Shown: piece by piece, positions 43,721-64,000 of the stretch | Numbering within the stretch: position 1 is the first letter of the stretch | Layout of the letters: every line of letters begins with the position of its first letter | From: Prorocentrum cordatum | Lineage: Eukaryota | Reading direction: 5' to 3' | Length of the DNA stretch: 64,000 bases | NCBI GenBank assembly: GCA_963575745.1 | Contig: CAUYUJ010000283.1 | Location: 1-64,000, forward strand | The notes under the pieces: model-generated | Told to the model about the DNA's origin: nothing | The model's input: only the letters and a program-made list of their open reading frames with translations | The model's database searches: none | Made by a program: the position numbers and the translations under genes

Positions 43721-44472
43721 CCTCCTCCTCCTCCTCCATCTCCCCCCTCCCCCCTCCAGAACGGCCACTGAAGAGCAACGGTCCTTAAGAACACGGCGAA
43801 ATTCAGCGCAGCCGCGACCGTGTAGATCGCCTCTCTCTCTCTCTCACGCGCGAGCTCCCGCGCACAACACCGATCCACCCCCCTCCTCTCCACGCCGCTG
43901 CCGCCGCTTCCCGGCCGCTGCTTCCGCCAACTGCTGCTGCCCCAGCCACACAAAAACCGGGTGGCCAACGAACCCCAAGGGGCCCAAGCGTGACCGGCGG
44001 GATTGAGTGCATGACACCGTCGGGCTGCGTCCACCGTCTCATTCGCCCTCCCCCGCCCCTCCCCTCCCCCTCGTGCTGTTCCTCCTCCTCCTCCTCCTCA
44101 TCATTCTTCTCCTCCTCCTCCTCATCCTCGTTATTACCCTCCTCTTCCTTTTCCTCTTCCTCTTCCTCCTCCTCCTCCTCATCATCATCAGTTTCGTCCT
44201 CTTCCTCATCTTCATCGTCATTCTCAGCCGCCTCTTCCTCGCCCTCCCACTTTATCTTACTCCTCCTCCTCCTCTTCCTCCTCCTCCTCTTGCTCTGTTT
44301 TGCTTTTCCTCTGTTCTGTCCCCTATCTGCTGCTCCAACCTCTCCCATCCTCTATCTTCTCTCCTCCTCCTCCTCCGCCTCCTCCTCCTCGCCCTCGTCC
44401 TCGTCCTCCTCCTCCTCCTCCTCCGCACCTCCTCCTCCTCGTCGTCCTCCTCCTCCTCCTCCGCCTCCTCCT

Positions 44473-44910
44473 CTGCGGTATGCGGAACTACTCCGAGAGA
44501 GATAGTGATCACCTCGCTCACGACAGACCTGGCAAATGCGATAGATGCTGACGACTGCTGATGGCATTAACGGCCTATCAGTCTAGCTTCCATCCGCGAC
44601 CGCACGTCCAAATCTCAAGAAATCGAAAACATGCGATGGACCGCCTGTCTCCTGGATCAGCGCCCGTGCCCCAAAAACTGGCCCACGGCCTTGAGCCGTG
44701 CGACGCGCGTGAACCAAAGTCAGAATCCGGACCCTCCCCCGAGATGTTCGCCAATGCTTATGAGAACAAGGAGTTTGCATTTGAGACGCATGTTATTCCT
44801 CATATGTAGTGTCACGTTTTTCTGTACTGGGGCACCCAAGGAGTCCTGACTACCCCCGGTATTGAAAACTCCGGTGGTGGGAGAAAAAAACGAAGCGCTC
44901 GAGAAAGTAC
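44473..44910. repeat. Unique block of a ~0.9-kb tandem duplication, copy 1
   Basis: About 17 substitutions (hand count) versus 52991-53430; the adjoining CT-rich part at 44110-44430 is also repeated at 45050-45350. Confidence 0.9.
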
Positions 44911-45512
44911 TCCTCCTCCTCCTCCGCGCCCTCCTCCTCCTCCTCCTCCTCCTCCTCCTCCTCCTCCTCCTCCTCCTCCTCCTCCTCCTCCTCCCCCTCC
45001 CCCTCCTCCTCCTCGTTCTCCTCCTCCTTCTCCTCCTCCTCCACCTCCTCCTCGTTATTACCCTCCTCTTCCTTTTCCTCTTCCTCTTCCTCCTCCTCCT
45101 CCTCATCATCAGTTTCGTCCTCTTCCTCGTCTTCATCGTCATTCTCAGCCGCCCTCTTCCTCGCCCTCCCCCCTTTATCCTACTCCTCCTCCTCCTCCTC
45201 TCCTCCTCCTCCTCCTCCTCTTCCTCCTCCTCCTCCTCTTGCTCTGTTTTGCTTTGCCTCTGTTCTGTACCCTATCTGCTGCTCCAACCTCTCATCCTCT
45301 ATCTTCTCTCCTCCTCCTCCTCCTCCTCCTCCGCCTCCTCCTCCTCCGCACCTCCTCCTCCTCCTCCTCCTCCTCCTCCTCCTCCTCCTCCTCCTCCTCC
45401 TCCTCCTCTCCTCCTCCCCTCCCTCCTCCTCCTCCTCCTCCTCCCCTCCTCCCCCTCCCCCTCCTCCTCCTCCTCCTCCTCCTCCTCCTCCTCCTCCTCC
45501 TCCTCCTCCTCC

Positions 45513-45534
45513 TCCGTAGCCATTTTGGCTCAAG
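45513..45534 (+). other. Perfect dinoflagellate spliced leader (DinoSL) forming the 5' end of a LINE
   Basis: TCCGTAGCCATTTTGGCTCAAG matches the DCCGTAGCCATTTTGGCTCAAG consensus 22/22; not followed by the GT/GC donor expected of an SL RNA gene. Confidence 0.97.
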
Positions 45535-45671
45535 CCGTTTGGGCCCCGACCGTCCGAGGTGCTGAGGCGCACCACGGGCTTTTGTGGCCCCCGACAATCT
45601 CCACGCGATTTCGGCTGGGATCGACAGTCCCCGAGGCGGGATCCAGATCACAAATAGTCGGTAGCAAAACG

Positions 45672-46931
45672 ATGGGCAAGAGCAAGCGCTCTCGCATCGC
45701 GAAGAAGCAGCAGGAGGTGCAGCCTGGGGACCCATGGCCGCCGCTCCCGCTCCGTCCTGGGCCTCAGCAGGCCGCGCCGCGGGGGAGCGGCATCGGGTGG
45801 GCGCCATGGCACGTGCCTCAGTCGTGGTTCGTGCCGCCGCCGCCGCCCTTGCCTGGGGCTGTGCGGCACCAGCGTGAGTCTCCCCAGGCTCAGGACACCA
45901 AGGTGAAGTGCTCGGCATGTCTGCGCTGGGCCTGGACCAGTAAGTTGGCGATGTATAAGAATACGTGCCTCTGCGGGGCGCCTTTCAGCAACCTTCCGCC
46001 GCCCGAGGCCGTCGAGGGCGGTGGCGGGCCCAAGCATGGCAAGGGCAAGGGCAAGGGGAAGGACCTGGGCGCGTTGGAGGCGCAGCTTGAGGCGGTCATC
46101 AAGGCGCGTGGCGGCACCGAGCAGGCGAAGGCGGCCCAGGCGCTGCTGGACGCCACTCGGGCCGCTGGCAAGAAGACGGACACGGCGCTGCCGATCACGC
46201 AGCAGGTGACGGCGGCGGCGTCGAAGGTGCAACGGGCTCAGTCGGCCTTCGACAAGGCCCAGTCTCAGCAGTTGAAGTTGACCAAGGAATTGGAGAAGTG
46301 TAAGAAGACGCTCCTGGATGCAGCGCAGACGTTGGCACAGGCTGAGGCGGAGAGGGCCACCCTGTTCCGCTCCATGGTGCCGACGGATTCGGGCGGTGGC
46401 GCCCAGGCGAGCAACACCATCGATTTGTCGGCGCTGCTGTCGGCGCAGTCGGTGGACGACTCTTTGTTCTCCATCTCTCTCGGTGCGGAGTTCAATAATG
46501 AGGACGGGCTCATTGAGCAAAAGGATTTGGAGGAGCTGGATCGTCGCAAAAAGGCTGTCATGGAGGCGCTGATGCACACCTTGCGGGCCACTTTCGGCGA
46601 GGCTCACGAGAAGCTCAAGGAGCACCGCGACAACCTGTCGGCGATGCGCGAGAAGGTCGCCAAGCGGCGCAGGGAGCACTCGCCTGGGCCACCTCAGGTG
46701 GCGGAGGCGACGGGCGACGGCCCTGCGCCTACGGCGGCCTCGGCCGACCAGGCAGCCTCGGGCGCAGCCGCCAGCTCGGCGGCAGGCGGCTCTGCGGGCG
46801 ACGGAGGCGAGCCCGACGCTGTGGAGGCGGCGCGCCTGGCTGCCCTGGAGAGCAAGCTCAAGGCGGACGCGGAGGCTATGCTGGCGACGGCGCGCTTGGC
46901 GGCGGCTACGGCTGGGCCGCCGAGCCTTTAG
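45672..46931 (+). CDS. LINE ORF1 (419 aa): basic N-terminus, Cys cluster, coiled coil
   Basis: First ATG after the SL (MGKSKRSR); CSAC...CLCGAPF zinc-finger-like motif; GKGKGKG; heptad-rich Ala/Gln/Lys helices; no interruptions. Confidence 0.8.
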   Translation: MGKSKRSRIAKKQQEVQPGDPWPPLPLRPGPQQAAPRGSGIGWAPWHVPQSWFVPPPPPLPGAVRHQRESPQAQDTKVKCSACLRWAWTSKLAMYKNTCLCGAPFSNLPPPEAVEGGGGPKHGKGKGKGKDLGALEAQLEAVIKARGGTEQAKAAQALLDATRAAGKKTDTALPITQQVTAAASKVQRAQSAFDKAQSQQLKLTKELEKCKKTLLDAAQTLAQAEAERATLFRSMVPTDSGGGAQASNTIDLSALLSAQSVDDSLFSISLGAEFNNEDGLIEQKDLEELDRRKKAVMEALMHTLRATFGEAHEKLKEHRDNLSAMREKVAKRRREHSPGPPQVAEATGDGPAPTAASADQAASGAAASSAAGGSAGDGGEPDAVEAARLAALESKLKADAEAMLATARLAAATAGPPSL

Positions 46932-47106
46932 CCTCTCGGATCCCCTCGATCGTGGCGGGCCTGAAGGTCGAGGGGCATGCCCGCCAGCTACGAGTTCGAG
47001 TTCGGCCCCTACAAGTGCTGGCGCTGCTGCGGACGCTCTGGCCACTGGAACCCCCTCAACCCCTTTCGCTGCAGCGCGTGGGCGTGAGCCCTGTCCGCAG
47101 TCGACG

Positions 47107-50100
47107 GTGTCGACTGTGGGGGCCGCTGAAGGGGGGGAGGCGTGCGGTCTCGGTGGCCCCGCGGCTGTGGTGGCTTCGTCGTCTGGGGCTTCCAGTTCGT
47201 GTACAGACCTGGCAACCGCAGGCCCCCCCCGCCGCTCTCCGAGCGGTCTCCAAGGGGTTAAAGGGGGGGAGCGCCTTCTCGGGGGCCAGGTCGGATCGGA
47301 TGCAGTTGTGGCCCGCCGTACGCTGCACATGCGGAACTTGGGTGGATGGGGACCTGCTACGCGATCTGTTTGCCGAGGTCGTGCCGCTGATATCCTCGTG
47401 TTTCCTGAGACTCATGTTCCTGAGGCTGGATCATACGAGTTGTTGCATGATTGGCGCAAGGCAGGATACATTGGCATGTTGTCGGCCGCCTACGAGCAGA
47501 ACGGGAAGTCTCGTGCAGGTGGCATTACTATGGGCACTTTGAAGAAGTATAAGGTTCAGTCGGTGAGGCATTTGGCGTCGTCGCCATCGGACCAGGTCGG
47601 GCTTCGTGACCTGGATCGGCGTCCAGAGGCTATGCCAGGCATCGACTTCCGTGATATGGTGGCTATGCAGCTACGGGCCCAGGGCCAGTCGTTGTTGATC
47701 GTTGGTGTGTACATGACCTCTTCGATCGGGCCGAAGGCAAACGCTCCCAAGCTCGCTAACGTTGGCACTTTGGTTTCGACGGTTCAAGGGCCGTGGTTGG
47801 CCATCGGTGACTGGAATATGACCCCAAATGAGTTAGCTGGTACGGGGTGGTTGGGTCTTGTGAATGGCAATGTGATCGTTCCGTCTAACACTGAGTACAC
47901 GTGCACGTTGGGGTCAGGGCGCATGTTGGATTATATCGTGGCTTCTCCGCATGCATTGCCTTGGGTCGAGTCTCTTTTGGCGGACTTTCAGGCGGTGGAG
48001 GGGGCGGGCAAGGCCCATTATGGGCTCCAGCTCAGCCTCAACTTCGACGCATGCCGCGCCAGAGCGTGGCTCATGAGGTTGCCGCGAGCTTTCCCACACC
48101 CTGCTCGGCCTAAGCCGTGCGCTGACCCCGATAGCAAGCGGTCGCGGAAGAAAGCGGAGCTGCAGGCGGACCGAGAAGTTCAACCCCAGCAGGGTGTCAT
48201 GCCCGCTCCGTCGTCGTGGGGGCCGAGGCGCACGCTGGTCATCAAGAGCCCGCCCCCGTTGCAATACGCCCTTTTCGAGGAGGAGGATGACGAGTTTTTC
48301 ACGGACGGGGAGGACACGGACGTCCCTGAAGATGATGATGATGTGCAGGTGGCCGTCTCTGATTCGGAAGTGGACACGCATGCCTCGATTCAGTTGGAGT
48401 GGTCGTCGGAGGCGAAGGATCTGTTGTGGCAGCAGGTGGCGCCCGCAGTTTCGCGTCGACCCGTTCCTGATTTTGTTCAGCAGTCGTTGGCGTTTCAGGC
48501 GGCCGGGGAGGAAGCTTATGACCTCGGAGATGTTTTCGCGTCTTGGGTCTCAACCATGGAGTTGTATTATCTTGAATTGTATAAGGTGGACCCCTTGGCG
48601 AGGAGGCAGTACCGTGGTCGTGACTCCTTGCGGGGCCCTCAGTTGGGAGTCTATGCTGGAAGTAAGCCGTACCCTACTGCCGCTGATCCCAGTGCTCGCT
48701 GGTGGGCCTCTGTGGCTAACTTGTTGGAGGAGTTGGTGGGCCAGAAGGGGGATAAGCGCAATCTCCCTCGAGCTCGGCATCTTCGGGACCAGCTCTCGCA
48801 GCTGGCTGGCTCCATCCCGTCCACGCAGATCGTTCCCTTGCCTGTCCGCCGTCGTGATCGATGGCTTCGCGGTCTACGAACTCTGGATGGTGCGACCTCG
48901 GAGTCTCTGGCGGCCTTCGCTGCTGGGGCGCGCAGGGCCTCGGGCCAGGCCCTGCGCGCTGTCGCTCGGCAGCGTCACCACGCTTTTCGCGATTGGGTCC
49001 ATCAGCAGGCTGTTCTGGGATGCGGCGCTCTGCATCGGTTTGTGCGTGACCCCACGGCCGAGGTCAGCGAGGTCAGAGTGCACGGCGATACGTCTTTTGA
49101 TGCGGCCTCTGTGATGGAGGCCAAGGCGGCGCTCTGGAGTGCGATATGGACACCATCCAACGTCGACGACGACCAGGCGCTCCGCGTGCTGCAGCGGGCT
49201 CGGCGGCTGGCGCTTCAGGACGAGCTGGAGCCCCTCACTCTTGTCCAGCTGGAGGAGGCGCTCCGTGCGGTGCCGCCTCGGAAGGCGCGCGGCATCGAGT
49301 CGGTCGGCCAGCGGGACGTTTGGTGGCTGCCTGAGTCGGGCCGCCGTGCGCTACTCGAATTGTTTCATTTGATCGAGGCCAAGGTTGCTTGGCCTTGGCA
49401 ATGGCTCACCGCTATCGTTGTTTTGCTTCGCAAACCTGATGTGCGCAAGGATCGCGCCATAGGCTTGCTCACCTGGTTGGGTCGGTTGTGGAGCCGCATG
49501 CGGTCTCGCCCTGCGGAAGTGTGGGCTGCGGCTCGCTCTGGTCCTTGGGACGCCGCAGTTCGAGGCAACAGCGCTCTACGAGAGGCTCTGCTCAGGTGCT
49601 ATGCCGACGAGGCTGCGCTTGCCTCAGTCCTGCCTGAATATTGCTCTGCCTCAGTTCTGTGGGATGTGGAAGCGTTCTATGACACTATTCGATGGGATCG
49701 CGTGGTCGACCATGCGATTGATCTTGAGTTTCCTCCGCACCCCCTAGCCTTGGAGGGTATCCTTCACATGGGGCCTCGGCTTTTGAGGGGCGAGGGGGTT
49801 TTTGCTCCGCCTATCATTCCGCACGGAGGGCTTGTGGCTGGAGCTCGCAGGGCCCCCGATTTCTCGAAATGTCAAATGTTCGAGATTTGTGAACGTGCGT
49901 ATGCCAGCAGTGCTCTTGTTTCCCTCCGTACGTGGATCGACGATGTCACCCAGCGTGCGGAAGGTCTTAAGCGAGATGTCATTCGTGAATTAATCCAAGC
50001 TGGGGCTGTTTTTGCCTCGGGCTGCGAGCAGGAGCAGCTGAGGATTGCTAGCAAGTCGATTATTGTGGCGTCTGAGATTTCGGTGGCGCGGGCTATTCAA

Positions 50101-50450
50101 GCTGGCCTAGGACTGAAAGGCATCCAGGTCGATGTGGCCTCGGTTGCGGCGGATCTGGGTATTGAAAGGGGCAGTGGCGTTTCTGTCGCCAAGCCCCGCC
50201 ACTCGAAGCGTCTCAGGCAAGCCACTCGTAGGGCGTGTCGTATCCATAAGTTAGCTGCTGTGGCCCCTCGGAAGATCGGGGCGCGTTTGATCCTCACTGG
50301 GGCTTTGCCGCAGGCGTCCTACGCCTGGAAGGTTTTTGGGGTCGCGCCCTCGGTCCTCCAGAAATGGCGACGGGCTTTAGCCAGCAGCTTAACTCGAGGC
50401 TTGGCGGGGCGATGTCTCACGACCCTGCTGGCCTTGGAAGTTAAAAAAAG
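47107..50450 (+). CDS. LINE ORF2 part 1: apurinic-like endonuclease and reverse transcriptase
   Basis: EN: MRNLGG, FPETH, GVYM, IGDWNMTP, LDYIV. RT: LLRKPD..DRAIGLL, LWDVEAFYDTI, GLVAG, TWIDDV, DLGI. Frame shifts at the A7 run (50443-50449); true start uncertain. Confidence 0.9.
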
Positions 50451-51250
50451 GACCCTGCTTTCACCACGGTGTTTCAGCTTCTGGAGTCCTGGTTTCAGAT
50501 TGTTGCTGCGCTGCCTGAAAAAGGAGTGGACCGCATGCGTGCCTGTTGGTCCGCCACGGTCGAGAGGATCGATAGCTTGGGCCCCCAGCGCAGGTGGCAT
50601 AATATAAAAGGACCCGTGTCGGCTGTGGTCGCTACCATGACGGCCTTGGGATGGAAGCTCGACGGGCCTTGGTCTTGGGTCGCTCCTGGGGGTGATGTCT
50701 TCGCTGTTCCCGATGAGCTTCGATCCCAGGCTTGTATGACGTCGGATTTTAAAAAGGAAGTGGACCGTAGCATTGAGGCGCGTTTATGGTCTGCCGCCGC
50801 CGAGTTCCGCAATGGAGGGGGTCTTGCATCAGGCGTCGACCTCGCGATTGCTTGGCGGCACCTTGCGTCCTTGCGTAGGAAGTCACCTCAGAAGGCTGGC
50901 TCGCTCAGGGCTGTCCTTACTGGGGCCGTCTGGACGAGGGGCCGTATTCAGGCTTCTGGGGGTGAGTGTGAGCTCACCTGCCCCCGTTGCAACTCGGCCC
51001 CCGAAACGGACGTCCACCGGTTCTGGGAATGCCCGTGCAACAGTGAGTTTCAGGAAGTGGACGATGGGTTCGCGCGTAAGGCTGCCTCTGTGGCTGCCGA
51101 TTTCCCATGTTTCTGGCTTCGCGGTCTCGTGCCCCGTGAGTGGACGTTCGTCCCTCCGCCTCCCGACGACCCCATCCTCTGTGCCGCTGGTGCGTTTCCT
51201 GGGCCTCGGGGGGGAACTCGCATCTGGGGCGCGGGGGATGCGAGTGGTGG
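50451..51250 (+). CDS. LINE ORF2 part 2: post-RT region, CCHC zinc finger, start of RNase H
   Basis: WHNIKGPVSAVVAT, CPRCNSAPETDVHRFWECPCN, CFWLRGLVP, GDASGG. Confidence 0.8.
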
Positions 51251-52477
51251 GTCACGAAGGATAAGCGTCTCAGACGGGTGTCATGGGGCGTCGCGGTTTT
51301 TGGCCATGATGTTACAACCCTGCCCCCACTGGTGTCGGATGCCGACATTCAGTTCATCCAAGGGGGCGGGATCTCTGGTAAGCAATCTGTGAATCGTGGT
51401 GAGCTCTGGGCCCTTTTGGCTTTCCTGGAAGGAGCTCACCCCCAGGCGTGTCTTGGATACGTCGCGGACTCGGCCTATGTTGCGAGGGGTTTTGCTCGCA
51501 TCCAGGCCGGCCTTTTGCAGCGAATTCAGACCCACGCTGATCTCTGGAGGCGTGTCCTGAGCGCTCTGGATCGTCTTGGGGATGTGGTTCTCATTCAGAT
51601 TCCGAATCACCTCAAGGTTGAGGAGGCCGTGCGCCGTGGATTAAACCCTGGCGTCGTGCTGGCGAATTCGGTGGCCGATGATGTTGCGAGCCACTTCGCC
51701 CAGCAGGTTCAGGTTCCATATGCTGTCTCGGCTCCCGTCAGGTTCGCTGATGGGCTAGCTCGGAAGGTGCAAAATCATTTCCTTGCTGTGATGTCTGATG
51801 TTTTGGAGCGTGAGGGTGGACGCCCTCCTCGCCCCCCCAAGGAGAAGGCTCGGAGAACGGCCCGCCAGCTCCTCCGCGCTGCGGCGGTGAAGTCCTCTCA
51901 TCATTGCCCCTTGCTTTGTGGGGATTTCTCCCAGTGCCAGAGGTGCGGTTGCTCTTCAACCGCTCGTGACCTGACATCGTTTTTGAATTCGCAGTGTACC
52001 CCTATGGAATGGTCTGGTGCGGTCTTTCGACCGACGGCGGCTGTGTGTGTGCGCAGTCGGCTTGTGGACCCTTCCCATGCCTTGGCGTTCTGGCCTGAGG
52101 CGAATGTGCTGTGGTGTTTAACTTGTGGGGCGTATTCGACCCAGCACTTGAGGGACCTGGGTAAGGTCTGTTCGGGCCGCCTCGGGAAGGCGGGGGCCCA
52201 AAACCTTTCCAGGATCGCCCAGGGCATGGTCCCTGGGAGTTTGGTTTGGGGGAAGGAGCGGAGGGAGAGGGCTTGCGCGAGAGGCGGGGTGGGAGAGAGA
52301 GATAGAGCGGCGAGTGCGGCCCCGCGTGCTCGGCGCGCGGCGCCGTTCGGGTCTGCCGCGGTCGCGGCCGACGTCTTCGCGGCCGTGGCCGCCAACAGGC
52401 GCCGCCCCGCCTCTCTCCCCCCCGCCCGCGCGCCCCCCTCCGCCCCCTCTGGTCCCCCGCCAACCTCGGTGGCTTAG
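51251..52477 (+). CDS. LINE ORF2 part 3: RNase H and C-terminal Cys/His fingers
   Basis: DKRLRRVSWG, QSVNRGELWA, VADSAYV, HADLW, IPNH, NSVADDVA; then CQRCG, SHAL...WCLTCGAY...C; stop at 52475-52477. Confidence 0.85.
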   Translation, partial: VTKDKRLRRVSWGVAVFGHDVTTLPPLVSDADIQFIQGGGISGKQSVNRGELWALLAFLEGAHPQACLGYVADSAYVARGFARIQAGLLQRIQTHADLWRRVLSALDRLGDVVLIQIPNHLKVEEAVRRGLNPGVVLANSVADDVASHFAQQVQVPYAVSAPVRFADGLARKVQNHFLAVMSDVLEREGGRPPRPPKEKARRTARQLLRAAAVKSSHHCPLLCGDFSQCQRCGCSSTARDLTSFLNSQCTPMEWSGAVFRPTAAVCVRSRLVDPSHALAFWPEANVLWCLTCGAYSTQHLRDLGKVCSGRLGKAGAQNLSRIAQGMVPGSLVWGKERRERACARGGVGERDRAASAAPRARRAAPFGSAAVAADVFAAVAANRRRPASLPPARAPPSAPSGPPPTSVA

Positions 52478-52537
52478 GTTGCCATTGTGGGTGGCCCTTT
52501 TCTCTCGTCCTTGATCATCATGATCGCTCGCTATATA

Positions 52538-52990
52538 CTCCTCCTCCTCCTCCTCCTCCTCTCCCCCTCCTCCTCCTCCTCTCCTCCCCCTCGTCCTCTT
52601 CATCCCCTCCTCCTCCTCACCTCACCTCCACCACCTCGTCATCCTCCTCCCTCCTCCCTCATCCTCCTCCTCCCCTCCTCCTCCTCCTCCTCTCCTCCGC
52701 CCCCCTTCTCCTCCTCCTCCTCCTCCGCCCCCCTCCTCCCTCCTCCTCCTCCTCCTCCTCCTCCTCCTCCTCCTCCTCCTCTCCTCCTCCTCCTCCTCCT
52801 CCTCCTCCCTCCTCCTCCTCCTCCTCCTCCTCCTCCCTCCTCCTCCTCCTCCTCCTCCTCCTCCTCCTCCTCCTCCTCCTCCTCCTCCTCCTCCTCCTCC
52901 TCCCCTCCTCCTCCTCCTCCTCCTCCTCCTCCTCCTCCTCCTCCTCCTCCTCCTCCTCCTGCTCCTCCTCCTCCTCCTCCTCCTCCTCCT
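52538..52990. repeat. (CCT)n tract at the LINE 3' end
   Basis: Starts immediately after ...CGCTATATA. Confidence 0.95.
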
Positions 52991-53430
52991 CTGCGGTATG
53001 CGGAACTACTCCGAGAGAAATCGTGATAACCTCGCTGACGACAGATCTGGCAAATGCGATAGATGCTGACGACTGCTGTTGGCATTGACGGCCTATCAAT
53101 CTAATTTTCATCCGCGACCGCACGTCCAAATCTCAAGAAATCGAAAACATGCGATGGACCGCCTGTTTCCTGGATCAGCGCCCGTGCCCCAAAAACTGGC
53201 CCACGGCCTTGAGCCGTGCGACGCGCGTGAACCAAAGTCAGAATCCGGACCCTCCCCCGAGATGTTCGCCAATGCTTATGAGAACAAGGAGTTTGCATTT
53301 GAGACGCATGTTATTCCTCATATGTAGTGCCACGTTTTTCTGTACTGGGGCACCCAGGGAGTCCTGACTACCCCCGGCATTGAAAACTCTGGTGGTGGGA
53401 GAAAAAAACGAAGCGCTCGAGAGAGTACTC
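52991..53430. repeat. Unique block of the tandem duplication, copy 2
   Basis: About 96% identical to 44473-44910 (hand count). Confidence 0.9.
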
Positions 53431-55960: not shown

Positions 55961-56207
55961 CCCGCCCCCCGTTGTCAGAGGCGGCTGCAGCCGCGGCGAC
56001 GAGCAGCATCCAGGAGGCCCCAGTAGGGACGACGGGCGCCGAAGAGAGCTGCCGCCGGTGCGACCAGCCCTCCTCCAACTCGGCGGCCTCCCTGGCTTTC
56101 GGGCCACAACTTGGCCTTCCGCGGCCGCTCGGAACGATTCTGGCACCCCAGGGTAGCTCTCAAAGGGGCTGGGAAACACCTGGAAATTTCCGAACACCTA
56201 TGGAAAC

Positions 56208-56290
56208 CTCATCATCACCATCACCATCACCATCACCAATACCATAGTCCTCCTCCTTCTCATCACCATGATCATCATCATCACCACCAC

Positions 56291-56326
<36 letters not shown>

Positions 56327-56664
56327 GACCACCATCATCATCATCATCATCAACATCAGCATAATCATCATCATCACCACCACCATCAGCATCATCACCA
56401 CCATCATCATCATCAACATCATCATCATCAGCATCATCATCACCATCACCACCACCACCATCATCATCATCACCACCATCATCATCATCATCATCATCAT
56501 CACCAACATCATCATGATCATCACAAACAATCACCATCATCATTAACATCATCATCATCACCATCACCACCACTACCATCATCATCACCACCATCAACAT
56601 CATCAACATCATCATCACCAATATCATCATCATCATCACCACCACACCTACAACCACCACCATG

Positions 56665-56696
<32 letters not shown>

Positions 56697-58192
56697 TACC
56701 ATCACCACCACCACCACCACCACACCATCATCATGACCACCATCATCATCATCAACATCATCATCATCATCACCACCATCATCCTCATCAACATCGTCAT
56801 CATCATCACCATCACCACCAACACCACAACCATCATCATCATCGTCACCATCACCATCATCATCATCACCACCACCATCATCATCATCATCACCATCACC
56901 ACCACCACCATCATCATCATCACCACCATCATCATCATCAACATCATCATCAACATCATCATCACCATCACCACCACCACCATCATCATCATCACCCTCA
57001 TCATCATCATCAACATCATCGTCATCACCATCATCACCACTACCACCAACACCACCATCATCATCATCCTCGCCACCACCATCATCATCATGATCATCAA
57101 CATGATCATAATCATCATCATCACCACCATCAACATCATCATCACCATCATCATCATCAACAACATCACCCTCACCACCACCATCACCATCATCATCACC
57201 ACTACCATCATCATCACCACCACCATCATCAGCATCATCATCATCAACATCATCACCATCATCATCACCACCACCACCATCATCATCATCACCACCATCA
57301 TCATCACCACCACCATCATCATCATCACCATCACCACCACCACCATCATCATCATCACCACCATCATCATCATCATTATCGTCATCATCATCACCATCAC
57401 CACCACCACCATCATCATCATCATCACCATCACCATCATCATCATCATCATCATCAACATCATCATCACTCTCACCACCACCACCACCCTCCTCCTCCTC
57501 CTCCTCCTCATCATCATCAACTTCAACATCATCATCATCACCACCATCATCATGATCACCATCATCATCATCACCATCACCACCACCACCACCATCATCA
57601 TCATCACCGTCACCATCATCATCATCATCATCATCAACATCAACATCATCATCACCATCGTCACCATCACCGCCACCACCACCATCATCATCATCACCAC
57701 CATCATCAACAACATCATCATCATCAGCATCATCATCATCACCACCACCATCATCATCACCACCATCAACATCATCATCATCAACATCATCATCACCATC
57801 ATCACCACCATCACCACCAACACCACCGTCATCATCATCATCATCACCACCACCATCTTCATCATCATCATCATCTTCATCATCAACATGGTCAGCATCA
57901 TCTCATCAGCACCACCATCATCATCATCACCATCATCATCATCGTCATCACCATCACCCTCACCACCACAACCACCTCCGCCACCATCATCAGCATTACC
58001 ACTATCATCATCGTCAACATCATCATCACCACCATCATCATCATCAGCATCATCACCACCACCACCATCATCATCATCACCACCATCATCAGCATAAACA
58101 TCATCATCATCATCACCACCACCACTACCACTATCATCACCATCATCATCACCACCACCATCATCATCATCACCACCATCACTATCATCACC
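56208..58192. repeat. ~2-kb (CAT/CAC)n microsatellite
   Basis: Directly visible; abuts the 3' end of the YR element. Confidence 0.95.
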
Positions 58193-58641
58193 ATGATACG
58201 CTGTTTCGTTAGGCGGAGAATCGAGTTCTGATAATGACGGCTCGCTGCGATCAGCGAGCTGCTCCTCCAGAGCTTTGGGACGAGGGGCCGAAAAAGGCCC
58301 CGCTCTGAGGGAACCGAAGACAGTCAGACGAACCCCCCCCCCGCCGCGCGGGAGCCCCCCTCCAGGGTTGGGCGGGCTGGGAGAACCGAGATGGGCTGCG
58401 GACGCAATGCTCCCTGCTAATCGTTGGCAGACGACACCCCGCTCCCCGCTTAATCGTATCCGTGCACGCACCCCCTATGATACGCTGTTTCGTTAGGCGG
58501 CGAACCGAGTTCTGATAATGACGGCTCGCTGCGATCAGCGAACTGCTCCTCCAGAGCTCTGGGACGAGGGGCCGAAAAGGCCCCGCTCTGAGGGAACCGA
58601 AGACAGTCAGACGACCCCCCCCCGCCGCGCGGGAGCCCCCT
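58193..58641 (-). repeat. Split direct repeats: B1 58477-58641, putative A2 58362-58476, B2 58193-58361
   Basis: Two ~165-bp near-identical copies separated by 115 bp of unique sequence, starting just after the last stop codon (58648). Confidence 0.85.
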
Positions 58642-58647
58642 GCCCCC

Positions 58648-59330
58648 TTACACAGGGCTAGCATTATAGATGGAGGCTTTCGCGAGGGACTGGAGGGAGT
58701 GAGTGAGCGCAGGGTTTAAAAACACTGGGCGTTTAAGGGAGTAACTAGTATGGCTCACTCCGAATGTATCTCTGCCCCGTCGGCGGATATGAGGGACGCC
58801 AGTCCTATCGCAAATACCTGTGCAGCTGTGACAAGTACGAGCCAATATCGCTATGTCTTCGGGCTCCGTGCCCACGTGCATGTATATACAACGGTGTCTC
58901 CAGGAGGCTCCGAACATGAATCTATCATTGACAACTGTCGTCACGAAACTATCTGGCACATCGGGTTGGCTAACGAGATGTGGCCAGAGCCGGCGTCCCT
59001 GCGGTATCTCCAGGAGGAGCGGCACGCGAGCTCGCCATGCTGTGGCGATGAGCCGTTTCAATCTCTCCGCAAACCTCCGCAGTCGGCGGTGGCCTGCTAG
59101 CCTACCTGTAGCTTTGTTTGCCGACGGTACCGCGGGCGACAGGAAAAGCGCGGCTACCTCACCACGCCGCAGGTGCGCCTGAAGGCGGCGCTCCAAGGGC
59201 GCGCCCAGCCGCTCGTCACCGAGGGCGTCGCCTCGCCACATCCGGGTAGGCACCCCACTTTCGGCGAGGCCCGACCCGATCGTGGCCAGCCCGTCCCCGA
59301 TCAGGAGCGCTTTGCACCGCTCGGCGAGGG
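58648..59330 (-). pseudogene. C5 DNA methyltransferase-like domain lacking the catalytic Cys
   Basis: ALLIGDG (motif I position), GEVAALFLSPAVPS (PPC position), VPLLLEIPQGRRLW (ENP position), NDRFMFGASWRHRC (DxCxFG..RK), LARTC...CDRTGVPH, RPVFLNPAL (YP..L). Confidence 0.6.
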
Positions 59331-59363
59331 CTGGATGCCTCCTGGCAGAGGCACCGCTCGCCC

Positions 59364-60090
59364 CTACACCAAGGCGCGCTCCAGCTCGCGCAAGCACTGG
59401 TCGCCGTACGCCTCCAGCATCGGCCCGTGCATCTGCGCGCGCTGCCCGAGGCGCGCGCTTTTCTCGTAGCGCGCCATGTTCATCAACTGGCGCCAACCTC
59501 CCCGCCGCCGCACCTCTGCCTGCGTCCTCTCGCCGCTGGCACGGTCGATGCTCGCCCCCGAGTGCCCCGCCTGACACGGCGTGACGGGCCGCAGCTGCAT
59601 CCTGCGGCAGGCCGCCTTCATCTTGCGCAGCAGCTCGGGGTAGTCGAAGTCCCACACAGGCTTCCGAGGACCGAGCATCTGCATCTCGCTCAGGACTGGC
59701 CCGATCCACCGTAGCCACGAGGAGTCCAGCCTCACGCTCAGGTCGAACTCCCCCACTTTGTCGGGCGTTTCTCGCTCCTGGGGGTGCATGAGGAGCCCCC
59801 AGTGCTGACTGCCACCTCCTGGTTTCACTATGTCGCCAGGGCGTAGTGTGTCTGCCCCCAGGCGTCCAAACTTTGGGTAGATGTGGTTCACCGCCGCCGC
59901 GACATACATCCCCGTCGAAGCCTGCTTGCCCAGCAGGTACAGCGAGGTGAAGTAGTGGTCCAGGCAGGCGTCCATCGTCTCCGCTGGCATCTCGAAAAAG
60001 TCCTGGCGGCCTGACCTCTGCTTCAGCTGCCCGACCACTCTCTGGCATTGGGCCCTCCCTCACGGCGTCGCCGTGCTCGACTCCAAGTAT
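59364..60090 (-). pseudogene. Tyrosine recombinase of the YR retrotransposon, inactivated
   Basis: MDACLDHYFTSLYLLG, WGLLMHPQE...KVGEFDLSVRLDS, PCQAGHSGAS (HxxR-box Arg replaced by Gly), RRGGW, RYEK; stop at 60060; probable deletion after KFGRLGAD. Confidence 0.8.
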
Positions 60091-60485
60091 CGGTCGAGCG
60101 ACACCCCGTCCTCGATCGCGCGAGCTACCGCCAGGTGCCGCCTCTTCACAAGCCTCACCAGTGTCCTCCGCCGCTTGAGCTCGACGGCGGCCTCGGACTC
60201 GCTGGTAGCGCCGCCCAAGCTCTCCCCAGCAGACCGAGCCCGCTTCCCAGTGGCGCGCCTTCGGATGGCGGCAGGTTGCGCCTCCGCCGCCGCCTCCAAG
60301 CACTGCGCTCGCGAGCCCTCCGCTGGCACGGGCGGCCCTCGGCCTTCCAGCGGGGCCCCGCTCGCGCCTCGAGCTCTCTCCCACGTGAGCACCCTCAGCC
60401 GCGACGCCGACGATGGCTCCGCTGCTGGGGAAGGGCCCGTCGCCGTCGGCCGAGCCCTCGGCAGTGTCCGGGGCGTCAACAACGG

Positions 60486-60507
60486 CCTGAACCAAAACGG
60501 CTACGGA
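60486..60507 (-). other. Internal DinoSL-like sequence (19/22) in the YR element
   Basis: Minus strand reads TCCGTAGCCGTTTTGGTTCAGG; all three differences from DinoSL are transitions; sense to the element. Confidence 0.8.
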
Positions 60508-60701
60508 GTGAGACCGAGACGCAGGGGCCCCATCGGATCCGGAGGAGCAGGGAGCCCCGAGGACGAGGGAGGAGGGGTGACGGCGATGCTCGTTTGTTTC
60601 CAGAGCTCTTACATGGATGGTGCACTGAAACGGGGCTACTCGCTTGCTCGCATTCAACATTGAAGCAATTAGAACTGACTGACTTTAGAACTGACTCAGG
60701 T

Positions 60702-63153
60702 TCAGCACGCCGACAGCGTAAGGGGGCCGAACGGCGTGCACGGACACGGGGGGGGGTCGTCGCCAACAATACTATTCGACTCATCCTCGCCCCTGAGACT
60801 CGACCCAGGAGGAAGAGAAAAGGCAGGCAGAGAGACAGGAATCAGACGCGTTAGAATCTTGGACGGTTCGCCACCGTCGGCCCGCGAGCCTTCGTCACTA
60901 TTGTTGAGCTCACTTGGGACCCAGCGGACGATTGCCCTAAGGTTTCGACTTAAAAGATAGGCAGCAAATTTACGAATATGTCGCAATATCGCGAAGCTAC
61001 GACACCTACATCTATCAAACGCTAGTGCTACACCTAGGTTATCAACTAACAAGATCTGCCTGACATTGAGGCCGAAACGAGTGAGTGCAATACGCCTCAG
61101 ATTTCACGAGGGCCCTGGACTCTAGAAAGCCGATGTGCTCACCGTGCCTCCACGTCCCCTGGCCAACGTTACGCCAAAGCTGATGAGACAGGAGAGAGCT
61201 GGGCACCTCACGGAACTCCGGGTCCATCTCGTAGTCACCCCTGGGCAGCGTGGATTCGGTCAAGGCCTTCTCGCCTTCGTCAACACAGAGAGCCACGTCC
61301 TCTCCCCTGGCGGTCAGAAACTCCCCAAGACCCGCGGCAGAGAGGGCGGAGCGACGAGCGTCACCCCCCCCCTCGGTACGGAAACGACACCTCTCCCGCC
61401 AGCGTCCCACGGAGTTGAGAGCCTCGAGATCCCAGAAGCTCCCCGCGATACCAAACCCACTCTCAGAAGCATCCGCACACTGCACCCATCGATTATATGG
61501 CAACCGCCAATCTGAGACGATCAGGGGAAGCAAGCCCCGAAACGTCTTCAACTCTTCTCGAAACCTATTCCAAAGGGATGCTGAATCTTTGCCCATTTTA
61601 GTCACAAACCTATAACAAGAGTGAAAGACGCAGAGCACGGGGCGGCGCACCAGGCCCAGGCACGTGCAATGCCCCAGCAGGACGCGCAGATCATCACCAC
61701 GGACTGCACGAAGTTGGGGCAGTCCCGTGATCGCCTGGCGCACCCCCCAGAGCCTCTTCGACGTCGGGCGCGTCTGCAGCCTCTGGCCGCCCAGCACCAC
61801 GCCGAGCACCTCGATGCCGTCACACCGAACCTCACGCCCGTGGACGCGTGGACCCACGGCCTCGAAGGCCTGCGCCAGCTCGTCGAGGCTGCTGCTCACG
61901 CGCCCCCCGTTCTGCCCGATCACGCCTATGTTGTCGACGTACACGTAGTGCTCGATCTGCGCCGTGCCCGCCGCCAACCTGAGCACCAATGGCTTCCCCA
62001 CGTCGCTGAGGGGCGCGCCGTCGCGAAGGCTCGGCGCGAACTGACAGCGGAGCTCCGCCACGCTCTGGCACAGGCACAGGCTCCACGTACGTCCCATCGG
62101 GAGAGCCTCGGGGACAGGGAAGATGACGTCGTCGTAGCCGAGCACCTTCCCCTCCAGCATCGCCCCGTGGAGCCTGACGTCCCCGGCCTCCAGGGCGGGC
62201 AGGCCGAACAAGCGCTTCATCCAGGGCGGCAGCCGCACGCGGTGGAAGGCGCCCTTCACGTCCGCCACCCCCGCCGAGAACTCCACGTCCTTGAGCGCCG
62301 CCTGGAAGGCCGCCTGCAGATGGCCCTCGGCGCCCCCGTCCTCCTCGAGTTCGAAGGCCGAGAGACCCTCCGCTGTCAGCAACTGCACCGACGGGGGACC
62401 TATCAACCAAGCGTTGCTCCTGCGACAATCCAGAATCATACGAGTCGTTTCCCCCCCGTCTTCCACGCGAAAAAGATGCCCACCGTCTCCGAGACCTGAC
62501 GTGCACATGACACCAGCCCACGTTTCGCGAGATCCCTCACAAAGTCACCGTACCGCCGCCGGCTCCGCACCAGCGATGGTTCGCTGAAGGGCGCCCGCGG
62601 ACAACGCTCCAGCGCCTCGAGCGCGCTCTCGTGGCCCCGCAGCATGCGCTCGCCCTGCCCCATCCACGCACTGGCGCGCCCGCCCCCGAAGCAGCTCGCG
62701 AAGCGCGGGCGCCTCGGCGATGCCCTCGGGAAGCGACGGCAGCCCAGGTCGGCAAGGGGCGAGCGCGTCCTCGGGAGGGCCGCCAAGGTAAGGCGACCTC
62801 CCTCGCATCAACTCCCGCAAGGCTGAATGCGGAGGCTGCAGCCCCACGCCCCGCATCGGCTGCGCGACGTCGTTCACCTGCCCATCGATGCGCTGCGCGA
62901 CGTCGAGCTGCGCGGCCGCCACGGGCGTCGTGGAAGACCCCGCGGATGCCCCTGCCAGCCAATTGAGGCTGTCAACCGCCTCGTTCACCAGCACATCATG
63001 AAAGCGTCGCTGACGAAGTCGACGCCGACCTCGCCCTGACGCCGCGTGGCCCACGAGCTCCCCCCTCCCTGGCAACGGGAAGATGTCGCGAACGCCCCCC
63101 CCCAGGCCACGGCCCAGGCGGTCCTGCACACTCGAGGCCGCTGGCTGAACCAC
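60702..63153 (-). pseudogene. RT-RNase H polyprotein of the YR element (at least three frameshifts)
   Basis: RDIFPLP, EAVDSLNWL, VGIFFAWK, RMILDCRRSN, ADVKGAFH, LPMGRTWSL, YVDN; RNase H CADASESGFG, HIGFLESRAL, LVDNLGV, RWVPSELNNSDEGSR. Confidence 0.88.
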
Positions 63154-63200
63154 GTCCAGCGGCCACTCCTTCCATCGTCATTTGTCAGCCCCCGACGCGG

Positions 63201-64000
63201 TCACGTCGGAGCCTTCGGCCCTTTCGGACCCTTCTTGTTGCCGTTGCCGTCATCTCTCTCTGACTTGGGCCGCTCGGCCGCCGTGAGGCCTCGAACACGA
63301 GCGCCCAGGAACTCGGCGTCCTCCTTGGCCCGCTTGGCACCGAAGCTGCGCAGCTCAGGCGCCACCACGTCTCCCGGGCCCGTCTCGCCTGCGAGGTAGC
63401 GGGCCATCCGCCAGTTGGCTGGAGCTCCAGGCACAGAGTGGGCGTCGGTGATCACCTGAATTCGCCTCGCGAGCCTCTCCAGCGACCGCAGACCGCCCAA
63501 GCTCAGGCAGAGAACCTCCAGCTCGTGGTAGATCCGATCCGTGCGCTCGATGCGGTGCTCTCGGCTCCACTCGGCCAGCCAGCGCATCGGGTCGCCCCCG
63601 CTCTTGTACATGGCCTTTGCCAGGTGGGCGATCGACGCGGGACCATCGATCGGGTCGTCGGGGGAGCTCTCGGCCGTGATCTCGCTCGCTCACCACGCTG
63701 CGCCCATCCTTGAACCTTTCCCCGTGCCCGTCGAAGTCCACGCTGAGGGTCCTCACGTCGCCTACGCTACTGGTCGCTATACGCTCCTCTCCACTGCCAG
63801 CCTCGCCCGCGGTCTCGCTAGTGTTCAGCCCGAGCTGGTCCTTCACTCCCGTTCCACCGATCTGTCGACCTGAGGCTCCAATACGTCTATGGCTCGGCGC
63901 AGGCGCGCTATCTGCTCAATGGCCAAGGCGGGTGCACTACCGACACCCACCCGACGCACTCGAGACACCTCCGAGCCCATGAACTTCAGCCCGTCGCTTC
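63201..64000 (-). pseudogene. gag-like ORF of the YR element (frameshifted, runs off the window)
   Basis: DVRTLSVDFDGHGERFK, then GP...HLAKAMYKSGGDPMRWLAEWSRE..DRIYHELEVL, LERLARRIQ, basic C-terminus; lies upstream of the RT ORF. Confidence 0.7.

What the first reader, a model, noticed from the sequence alone, without database searches (positions are those of the whole stretch)
60440..60560. Spliced-leader copy embedded inside a YR retrotransposon, just upstream of the recombinase-MTase module
Seen: minus-strand TCCGTAGCCGTTTTGGTTCAGG (19/22, all transitions), sense to the element, between RNase H and the YR frame. It is preceded by a CT-rich stretch and followed by CCGTT, as in the LINE. A rough equal-base-frequency estimate gives about 0.001 such matches per window by chance. 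An internal SL cannot come from simple 5' trans-splicing of the genomic RNA. Inference: either the YR-MTase half was acquired as a retro-copy of a trans-spliced mRNA, or the element keeps an SL mimic or acceptor to make a subgenomic YR mRNA. With the LINE, this suggests convergent SL co-option by unrelated retroelements.
Basis: partly seen in the sequence, partly recalled or inferred. Interest (0 to 1): 0.85.

Follow-up and report, generated by a model that had tools for sequence, protein, structure and literature searches.

The report
Fossil spliced leader inside a dinoflagellate retrotransposon
A decayed copy of the dinoflagellate spliced leader really does sit inside a tyrosine-recombinase retrotransposon, but it looks like an inherited fossil of an RNA 5' end copied in by reverse transcription, not evidence that half of the element was captured or that the leader is kept for a purpose.

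Summary
A 22-mer at 60507-60486 (-) matches 19 of 22 bases of the dinoflagellate spliced leader (DinoSL), and all three differences are transitions. The perfect DinoSL is in the same window at 45513. The copy is in sense orientation, between the RNase H end and the recombinase (YR) core of a decayed DIRS-like element.

- **Old architecture.** The order RT-RH-YR-methyltransferase-like recurs in 41 metagenomic relatives, and none carries an SL-like 22-mer. Capture of a YR-MTase half is therefore unlikely.
- **Not a spacer.** In intact relatives the methyltransferase-like domain is the C-terminus of Pol. The YR gene is nested in the +1 frame, so the leader sits in doubly coding sequence.
- **Shared but not conserved.** Prorocentrum cordatum gene models and contigs of one public run carry the same stretch. 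In the one other copy that can be read there, the motif is no better kept than its flanks.
- **Not independent of the LINE.** About 40 bases after the leader resemble those after the LINE's leader.

Best reading: a relict leader written in by template switching, then inherited and decaying. I could not test whether it serves as a trans-splice acceptor, because no RNA data were available. Interest is moderate.

The parts
60486..60507 (-). Relict DinoSL, 19/22 to the canonical leader, full length from SL base 1. It reads without a stop in frame 1 and gives TAG (60503-60501) in frame 2.
60508..60570 (-). CT-rich stretch directly upstream of the leader (C+T 0.68). It contains an ATG at 60534 in the recombinase frame.
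60441..60485 (-). About 45 nt after the leader. They align, anchored at the leader's end, with the first ~40 nt after the LINE's leader (45535-45575).
60705..63141 (-). Decayed Pol N-terminal part, reverse transcriptase (YVDN near 61960) and RNase H. It has at least two frameshifts (about 62480 and 61090) and an in-frame stop (62545). The conserved RH end is at about 60882-60836 and the frame-2 stop at 60704.
58648..60684 (-). Long frame-1 ORF (678 aa), equal to the Pol linker plus the remnant of the C5-methyltransferase-like domain (58648-59343). The motifs FxGxG, PPC and ENP of the relatives are lost here.
59364..60499 (-). Tyrosine-recombinase frame (frame 2, +1 relative to the MT frame). 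It is open from the leader's TAG. It has a private TGA at 60062-60060 and lacks about 60-80 residues that relatives have before the catalytic core. The RHSGAS motif reads GHSGAS.
58193..58640 (-). 3' terminal direct repeat: 58640-58477 and 58359-58193 are 96% alike, 117 nt apart. This is the B-x-B part of an A-pol-B-A-B type end. The 5' end of the element lies beyond 64000.
45513..52477 (+). LINE-like element. A perfect DinoSL (45513-45534) follows a long (TCC)n tract. The first ATG of ORF1 is at 45673. It has weak endonuclease and zf-RVT hits.

Best explanation
The 22-mer is a genuine relict DinoSL: a DNA copy of the capped 5' end of a trans-spliced RNA. It was written into an ancestor of one Prorocentrum-type subfamily of an old DIRS-like retrotransposon lineage. 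In that lineage Pol is N-term/RT/RNase H/linker/C5-methyltransferase-like, and the tyrosine-recombinase gene is nested in the +1 frame of the linker.

The most likely route is template switching or recombination during reverse transcription, involving an SL-capped RNA. That RNA was either the element's own internally trans-spliced RNA or a LINE-like mRNA whose first ~40 nt it resembles. The leader landed at the start of the recombinase-coding stretch, was inherited by descendant copies and is now decaying like its surroundings. The window's copy is dead.

Shown:
- The motif is SL-derived and in sense orientation.
- It lies in sequence that is doubly coding in intact relatives.
- It is absent from all distant relatives examined.
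- The same stretch is present in other family copies.
- The window copy is decayed.

Inferred:
- The route (template switch) and the donor RNA.
- The size of the inserted piece: exactly 22 nt, or about 63-66 nt including the LINE-like stretch.
- That the decay is neutral.
For: Identity and chance:
- 19/22 with three transitions, and the perfect leader is in the same window.
- 0 of 100 shuffles gave a match; the expectation is 3.2e-4.

Old, SL-free architecture:
- The metagenome scan confirmed 41 loci out of 138 pattern matches.
- There are 0 SL-like 22-mers (<=6 mismatches) in all 41 loci, 181,978 nt, both strands.
- 27 loci hold both RH end and YR; all show RT/RH before YR, and MT-like after YR where the flank allows.
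- In 23 of 27 the RH frame stays open >=1000 nt past the RH hit.
- Pol ORFs are 996-1526 aa at GC 0.48-0.52.
- In 11 of 19 loci RH and MT share a frame with YR at +1.
- PMC3783388 states that the YR ORF can overlap other ORFs.

Family sharing:
- Run X1 lays 297 contigs at 80-100% identity over all 30 bins.
- One contig (312 nt, 60379-60691, 31 differences, 7 gap letters) crosses the site without a 22-nt gap.
- P. cordatum model P0069 starts MLVN.., aligned to the window's VLVQ, which is SL positions 10-21.
- In window coordinates, P. cordatum model P0015 joins RT sequence directly to an exon starting at 60486, the leader's last base.

Decay:
- The window copy has frameshifts, stops and a deletion. 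The TGA at 60062 is C on the minus strand in 5 of 5 X1 contigs.
- P0069 differs from the window in 2 of the 4 SL-derived residues, with a 2-residue indel right after. It matches 9 of the next 17 residues but 26 of the following 27.

Frames and donor:
- Upstream of the leader frames 0 and 1 are open; downstream frames 1 and 2 are open. This is the shift a 22-nt (3n+1) insert makes in two ORFs offset by +1.
- LINE-like similarity after the leader: anchored score 30, against a maximum of 29 in 5000 random element 45-mers.

Background:
- Relict leaders arise when trans-spliced RNAs are reverse-transcribed into the genome (PMC7245778, PMC3229502, PMC5585692; passages).
Against: - No DNA of close copies could be read letter by letter. 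Presence of the full 22-mer elsewhere rests on a contig's coordinates and gap count, and on two spliced gene models.
- The site has no AG immediately upstream of the leader (..CTCAC|TCCG), so it is not a simple print of trans-splicing at that exact base.
- No target-site duplication or flanking duplication was found.
- The insert size is unresolved. Frames 1 and 2 are also both open for 36 codons or more on the upstream side, which fits an in-frame insert of about 66 nt equally well. The N-terminal and linker profiles of relatives are too weak to assign frames.
- The LINE similarity beyond the first 9 nt is only p of about 0.01-0.02.
- If the insert broke both ORFs, spread of the SL-bearing lineage needs mobilisation in trans or DNA-level duplication. 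Neither was shown.
- 'Neutral decay' rests on one protein-level comparison.
Confidence: 0.6

Rival explanations
1. Working signal. The element keeps the CT-rich tract plus the relict leader's AG (GTAG| or CAG|G) as an internal trans-splice acceptor. This yields a capped subgenomic mRNA for the nested recombinase (and perhaps the linker-MT part). The leader in the DNA is the print of that mRNA, maintained because it helps expression.
For: - The leader sits just where the recombinase frame opens: its own TAG is the last upstream stop.
- A pyrimidine-rich tract precedes it.
- Relict leaders are known to be re-spliced at their internal AG (PMC3229502).
- SL trans-splicing is thought to resolve multi-gene transcripts in dinoflagellates (PMC7245778, PMC11453091).
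- Precedent: the Cer1 retrotransposon of C. elegans makes an SL1 trans-spliced short mRNA from an internal acceptor (PMC3315495).
- A P. cordatum gene model places an acceptor exactly at the leader's last AG.
- The motif persists in several copies.
Against: - 0 of 41 relatives with the same nested architecture have any leader there, so the design works without it.
- The motif is no better kept than its flanks in P0069.
- There is no ATG in the recombinase frame between the leader and the conserved core in this copy.
- The gene-model boundary may be an ab initio call.
Confidence: 0.2
2. Module capture. The recombinase-methyltransferase half entered the element as a retro-copy of a trans-spliced host or foreign mRNA, and the leader marks the seam.
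For: The leader lies at the 5' side of the recombinase region, in sense orientation.
Against: - The same gene order and the same frame relations occur in SL-free relatives at 27-53% YR identity.
- MT-like is in the Pol frame, not in the YR frame.
- RT and YR both give the window a 2.84 end branch outside the 11 relatives, and both trees share the clades L024+L009, L013+L031 and L004+L005.
- P. cordatum model P0015 carries both halves of the same subfamily.
Confidence: 0.05
3. One-off junction. An SL-led, 5'-truncated retro-copy (YR-MT) landed by chance next to a 3'-truncated RT-RH copy.
For: The window copy is heavily decayed and the region 60704-60611 is AT-richer with six stops in one frame.
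Against: - A contig of another copy runs 184 nt upstream and 107 nt downstream of the leader, and another contig links that upstream part to RNase H (records 5 and 6).
- Two P. cordatum loci show the same succession.
- The spacing RH to YR fits the family architecture.
Confidence: 0.07
4. Chance resemblance, or an SL RNA gene.
For: None beyond the large size of dinoflagellate genomes.
Against: - The expectation is 3.2e-4 per window, and 0 of 100 shuffles matched.
- There is no GT donor after the 22-mer and no Rfam match.
Confidence: 0.01

Closest known systems
Relict DinoSL of dinoflagellate retrogenes ('recycled cDNAs'; Slamovits & Keeling 2008 as cited in PMC7245778 and PMC3229502; Song et al. 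2017, PMC5585692)
   Same: It is a DNA-encoded copy of the 22-nt leader, in sense orientation, upstream of coding sequence. It is decayed by point changes and explained by reverse transcription of a trans-spliced RNA.
   Different: It is not at the 5' edge of a retro-copy. It lies inside a retrotransposon, in a stretch that is doubly coding in intact relatives, with element sequence on both sides. It is the full 22-mer, not the 15-nt truncated tandem relic.
DIRS-like retrotransposons of Symbiodiniaceae (SymbioDIRS / SymbioDIRS-Dnmt3; de Mendoza et al. 2018, PMC5890265) and DIRS/Ngaro elements generally (PMC3783388)
   Same: - The RT is too divergent for Pfam.
- It has RNase H and a tyrosine recombinase in a separate, overlapping ORF.
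- It has a methyltransferase-type domain in Pol and terminal direct repeats of the A-pol-B-A-B kind.
   Different: - The MT-like domain here is recognised only by motifs and fold, not by Pfam PF00145.
- That paper has no occurrence of 'spliced leader'.
- The window's subfamily is of Prorocentrum type and carries the leader.
Cer1 (Gypsy/Ty3) of C. elegans, whose short mRNA is SL1 trans-spliced at an internal acceptor (PMC3315495)
   Same: It is a retrotransposon in an SL-trans-splicing host with an internal SL acceptor that gives a subgenomic mRNA. This is what the functional rival proposes here.
   Different: In Cer1 the leader is added to RNA only and is not encoded inside the element. Here the leader is in the DNA and no RNA evidence exists.
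Chimeric retro-copies made by RT template switching (U6/L1 chimeras in mammals; short host-RNA inserts in retroviruses).
   Same: A foreign RNA 5' end copied up to its cap and joined to retroelement sequence.
   Different: Here the captured end is an SL-capped RNA and the recipient is a YR retrotransposon. The mechanism is inferred only.

Membership tests
Relict DinoSL (retroposition signature) | Close match to the 22-nt DinoSL consensus | tested here: met
   19/22, three transitions. The perfect copy is in the same window. 0 of 100 shuffles matched. The consensus is quoted.
Relict DinoSL (retroposition signature) | Sense orientation, within a few hundred bases upstream of the coding sequence it once capped | tested here: met
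   Same strand as the element. Recombinase homology starts 120-220 nt downstream.
Relict DinoSL (retroposition signature) | Lies at the 5' boundary of the retro-copied unit (the upstream flank is unrelated to the parent) | tested here: not met
   Element sequence continues upstream, in this copy and in another copy's contigs.
Relict DinoSL (retroposition signature) | Truncated tandem relics (from SL base 8) directly downstream, showing repeated cycles | tested here: inconclusive
   The first ~10 nt after the leader resemble the start of a truncated relic (about 8 of 10 with one gap), here and in the LINE. Nothing is recognisable beyond that.
DIRS-like (tyrosine-recombinase) retrotransposon | RT and RNase H of DIRS type | tested here: met
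   YVDN and the ..RWVPSELN..D..SR end are present. tblastn to 27 loci gave E down to 1e-94. Pfam is silent or weak, as PMC5890265 reports for Symbiodinium DIRS.
DIRS-like (tyrosine-recombinase) retrotransposon | Tyrosine recombinase with conserved catalytic-region motifs | tested here: met
   Invariant H, S, G, S and R are present. The R-G-x-W and R-Y-E-K motifs are shared with 13 homologues, one named integrase by its source. The first R of RHSGAS is G in this copy.
DIRS-like (tyrosine-recombinase) retrotransposon | Terminal repeats (ITR+ICR, or A-pol-B-A-B) | tested here: inconclusive
   The 3' direct repeat 58640-58477 / 58359-58193 is present. The 5' end lies outside the window, so the A repeat could not be matched.
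DIRS-like (tyrosine-recombinase) retrotransposon | Methyltransferase domain in Pol, with the YR ORF overlapping | tested here: met
   In relatives RH and MT-like share one frame and YR is at +1 (11 of 19 loci). The model has pLDDT 78 and pTM 0.80. Every listed Foldseek PDB hit is a C5 cytosine methyltransferase; the best has E 1.6e-4 and TM-scores of the top dozen are 0.36-0.46. The motifs DLFAGxGG, PPCSSFS and ENP are present. They are lost in the window copy.
SymbioDIRS-Dnmt3 (PMC5890265) | Pfam-recognisable DNMT (PF00145) of the Dnmt3 clade in Pol | tested here: not met
   No Pfam family matched the MT-like domain of the window, and none covered that domain in the 3 relatives' Pol ORFs, at E<=1. 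There was no PDB sequence hit. Clade membership was not tested.
SL RNA gene | Leader exon followed by a GT donor and SL RNA intron, often in arrays | tested here: not met
   The leader is followed by CCGTT. There was no Rfam match at gathering score in the window, nor at E<=1 near the site.

The most novel reading that the evidence does not exclude
The leader is the fossil of the element's own subgenomic mRNA. On this reading, dinoflagellate tyrosine-recombinase retrotransposons free their nested recombinase gene by SL trans-splicing inside Pol. One such mRNA recombined back into the full-length element during reverse transcription, so the element now carries its own cap sequence and re-uses it as an acceptor. 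The 5' end of the same RNA was also picked up by a LINE, which would explain the shared ~40 nt.
Probability: 0.2. Interest if true: 0.7.

Novelty: new variant of a known kind. Interest (0 to 1): 0.4.

Why it matters
Relict leaders are the standard marker for retroposition in dinoflagellates, and they are read as marking the 5' edge of a retro-copied mRNA. This case shows a leader can also end up inside a retrotransposon, within overlapping genes, and be passed on to descendant copies. Three consequences follow:
- Retrogene counts based on 'leader within 500 bp upstream of an ORF' will include such internal relics.
- It is a natural record of template switching between SL-capped RNAs and retroelement RNAs.
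- It gives a concrete, testable site for asking whether dinoflagellate retroelements use SL trans-splicing to express nested genes.

As side results, the work describes the nested +1 recombinase gene and a divergent C5-methyltransferase-like Pol tail in a wide set of dinoflagellate-type DIRS elements.

Tried and rejected
**Searches that gave nothing**
- No whole genome is held for the window.
- Earlier-findings look-ups by place, words and sequence returned nothing.
- No RNA holder was listed among sequencing runs. The three runs laid were DNA contigs. X2 and X3 gave only short, poor pieces.
- The viral-contig scan with the YR alignment gave 7 pattern matches and 0 relatives.
- The genome-contig scan with P0069 gave 44 pattern matches and 0 relatives.
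- Protein word searches with the frame-1 translation across the leader found nothing. One search scored only the 8000 candidates sharing most words and missed even P0069, so it is uninformative.
- The representatives search found no protein covering the residues upstream of the leader.

**Family and structure look-ups**
- Pfam on ten stop-to-stop frames of the element gave 0 families.
- A PDB sequence search with the MT-like profile gave only one spurious hit, E 0.11.
- Rfam gave nothing.

**Tests around the insertion site**
- A search for a target-site duplication around the leader found only 8-mers of no significance.
- A search for an internal duplication of the N-terminal region gave score 23, against a shuffle mean of 19.8 and maximum of 29.
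- Profiles of the relatives' YR N-terminus and Pol linker were too weak to say which window frames are ancestral upstream of the leader. I could not choose between three candidate recombinase starts: ATG 60784 in frame 0, ATG near 60660 in frame 1 (my own reading of the translation; the coordinate was not computed by a call), or ATG 60534 in frame 2. Nor could I choose between a 22-nt and a ~66-nt insert.

**Other**
- The idea that the post-leader similarity to the LINE is only a pair of decayed truncated relics explains the first ~10 nt, not the rest.
- The 6-mismatch SL-like hit at 29042 is at chance level: 5 of 20 block shuffles gave one hit at <=6 mismatches.

Full report
**1. The observation**

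The minus strand at 60507-60486 reads TCCGTAGCCGTTTTGGTTCAGG. The same search found the canonical dinoflagellate leader at 45513-45534 (+). Its sequence matches the consensus quoted in PMC8045281, PMC5585692 and PMC7245778 (passages). The two differ at positions 10, 17 and 21, all by transitions.

None of 100 dinucleotide shuffles gave a match at <=3 mismatches. The equal-frequency expectation is 3.2e-4 per window. A scan at <=6 mismatches found two more SL-like sites. The one at 21826-21805 (-) has 4 mismatches and is probably a third relic. The one at 29042 has 6 mismatches and is at chance level, since 5 of 20 block shuffles gave one hit.

The 63 nt upstream of the motif are 68% C+T, against 47% for the element strand. 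Both leaders are followed by CCGTT.

**2. What surrounds it**

Pfam sees nothing in ten frames of this region. De Mendoza et al. 2018 report the same for the divergent RT of Symbiodinium DIRS elements (PMC5890265, passages).

Reading the three minus-strand frames shows the following:
- An RT (YVDN) and RNase H, broken by at least two frameshifts and an in-frame stop.
- The conserved RNase H end at about 60882-60836.
- A recombinase frame (frame 2) open from the leader's own TAG down to 59364, with one TGA at 60062.
- A 96% direct repeat at the 3' end (58640-58477 and 58359-58193).

The element runs off the window at 64000.

**3. Relatives**

The recombinase has 13 homologues in the protein collection. 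The best are 87% and 83% identical fragments, and one is a Prorocentrum cordatum protein.

A metagenome scan gave 41 loci with 27-53% identical recombinases. tblastn with the window's segments shows the same order on one strand wherever the flank allows: N-terminal part, RT, RNase H, recombinase, MT-like.

In 23 of the 27 loci holding both RNase H end and recombinase, the RNase H frame stays open for 1000 nt or more beyond the RNase H hit. In the intact ones it ends where the MT-like domain ends. This gives Pol ORFs of 996-1526 aa at only 48-52% GC.

In 11 of the 19 loci with all three hits, RNase H and MT-like share one frame and the recombinase is at +1. The other 8 are frameshifted copies. 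The recombinase ORFs are 441-519 aa in 13 of the 14 examined. They start within about 30 nt of the RNase H end, several with M-[AGS]-P-K-R-V.

In this lineage, therefore, the MT-like domain is the C-terminus of Pol and the recombinase gene is nested in its linker. This fits the DIRS description in PMC3783388.

The MT-like domain of the relatives carries DLFAGxGG, PPCSSFS and ENP. It is invisible to Pfam and to a PDB sequence search. It folds with pLDDT 78 and pTM 0.80, and every listed Foldseek PDB hit is a C5 cytosine methyltransferase (best E 1.6e-4; TM-scores of the top dozen 0.36-0.46). In the window's copy these motifs are gone.

**4. The leader in relatives**

None of the 41 loci (181,978 nt, both strands) contains a 22-mer within 6 mismatches of the leader. 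The architecture is therefore older than the leader and works without it.

RT and recombinase trees (11 loci with long hits, 30 left out for short or missing hits) both place the window on an end branch of 2.84 outside all relatives. Both trees share the clades L024+L009, L013+L031 and L004+L005. Nothing suggests a swapped half, although at this distance the test is weak.

**5. The leader in close copies**

One public run (X1, DNA contigs) lays 297 contigs at 80-100% identity over all 30 bins of 58600-64000, so the family is multi-copy.
- One 312-nt contig covers 60379-60691 with 31 differences and 7 gap letters. It crosses the leader site without a 22-nt gap.
- Another contig links 60577 to 61010 (RNase H).
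- All 5 contigs at 60062 have the base that turns the window's TGA into CGA, so that stop is private to the window's copy.

The representatives search and cluster look-up brought in P. cordatum gene models.
- P0069 (517 aa) begins MLVNFP, then AVAG.. This aligns with the window's VLVQ, then AVVD.., so its start codon lies in the leader-derived bases.
- P0015 (1267 aa, a chimera with a kinase) joins RT sequence directly to AVVDASDT.. In window coordinates that exon starts at 60486, the leader's last base.

These are spliced gene models, not transcripts. They do show the same succession in at least two further loci.

Between the window and P0069, the four leader-derived residues differ at two, and a two-residue indel follows. 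The next 17 residues match at 9 and the following 27 at 26. The motif is not better kept than its flanks.

**6. How large is the insert, and where did it come from?**

Two readings fit the frames.
- *A 22-nt insert.* Upstream of the leader frames 0 and 1 are open, for 366 and 177 nt. Downstream frames 1 and 2 are open. A 22-nt (3n+1) insert into two ORFs offset by +1 produces exactly this step.
- *An in-frame insert of about 63-66 nt.* Frames 1 and 2 are also both open for 36 codons or more just upstream, with an ATG at 60534. The window's N-terminal region from that ATG is about 20 codons longer than in relatives.

The second reading gains some support from the LINE. Anchored at the leader's end, the next ~40 nt of the two elements align with score 30. 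The maximum was 29 in 5000 random 45-mers from the two elements, and 0.04% of whole-window 45-mers reached 30. Without the first 9 nt, p is about 0.01-0.02.

Profiles of the relatives' N-termini and linkers are too weak to decide. No target-site or flanking duplication marks the insert. No AG precedes the leader, so it is not a simple print of trans-splicing at that base.

**7. Explanation**

The leader is a relict DinoSL. Relict leaders arise when trans-spliced RNAs are reverse-transcribed into DNA (PMC7245778, PMC3229502, PMC5585692).

Because element sequence continues on both sides, a second event is needed. The likeliest is a template switch or recombination during reverse transcription, between the element's RNA and an SL-capped RNA. 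That RNA was either the element's own internally spliced RNA or a LINE-like mRNA. The product was inherited within a Prorocentrum-type subfamily and is decaying. I put this at 0.6.

The functional rival holds that the CT-rich tract plus the relic's AG serve as an acceptor for a subgenomic recombinase mRNA, as SL1 does in Cer1 (PMC3315495). It is not excluded, and I put it at 0.2. Capture of a recombinase-MTase module (0.05), a one-off junction (0.07) and chance (0.01) are disfavoured by sections 3 to 5.

**8. Comparison and novelty**

Leader relics upstream of retrogenes are well known. Song et al. found 'RNA-dependent DNA replication' enriched among genes with relics.

I found no description of a leader embedded inside a retrotransposon's coding region, in:
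- four full-text searches;
- term-search passages of PMC5890265, PMC8045281, PMC5585692, PMC12014239, PMC7245778 and PMC11453091.

Supplements were not opened. I rate it a new variant of a known kind, of moderate interest.

The LINE's leader needs no special explanation: a full-length retro-copy of a trans-spliced RNA carries it. 'Convergent co-option' is not supported.

Noticed in passing
L003-L024 and other loci (e.g. L012:859-5256 Pol, L012:3155-4531 YR): In metagenomic relatives the recombinase ORF (441-519 aa) lies wholly inside the Pol ORF (up to 1526 aa) in the +1 frame, between RNase H and a C-terminal domain, at about 50% GC. This is a long true gene overlap. I did not find it stated for dinoflagellate DIRS elements in the passages of PMC5890265 that I saw.
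   Followed up: partly
L012:4456-5253 and equivalents; window 58648-59343 (-): The Pol C-terminal domain has FxGxG, PPC and ENP motifs and a C5 cytosine methyltransferase fold (Foldseek E 1.6e-4). It is missed by Pfam and by a PDB sequence search, so it is a very divergent DNMT-like domain.
   Followed up: partly
window 45513-52477 (+): A LINE-like element has a perfect DinoSL at its 5' end, 139 nt before the first ATG. It is embedded in long (TCC)n-type low-complexity sequence on both sides (about 43800-45512 and 52300-53100). It may be a microsatellite-targeting family.
   Followed up: partly
window 21805-21826 (-): A third SL-like 22-mer (4 mismatches) is not followed by CCGTT. ATGs follow about 145 nt downstream. 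It is possibly a retrogene leader.
   Followed up: no
window 60661-60696 (-): A 12-nt unit (AGTCAGTTCTAA) is repeated with a 16-nt period, in an AT-richer patch that has six stops in one frame. A contig of another copy differs here by -4 nt (60611) and -2 nt (60748).
   Followed up: partly
window 56000-58200: About 2 kb of very skewed low-complexity sequence (GC skew -0.8) is open in several frames as His-, Asp/Gly- or Ile/Thr-rich runs. It lies directly 3' of the element.
   Followed up: no
P0015 (CAK0831367.1), P0069 (CAK0884681.1), P0007 (CAK0824879.1): Prorocentrum cordatum gene models fuse pieces of this retrotransposon across frames by predicted introns. One also fuses a casein-kinase-like N-terminus and is named 'Casein kinase I' in UniRef. 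These are likely annotation chimeras.
   Followed up: partly
P0014, P0016, P0017 (EukProt set labelled Pyramimonas sp. CCMP1952): Short proteins from a set labelled as a green alga (a transcriptome-derived set by recall) match this dinoflagellate element at 43-80% identity. This hints that the family is transcribed somewhere and that the set contains dinoflagellate sequence.
   Followed up: no
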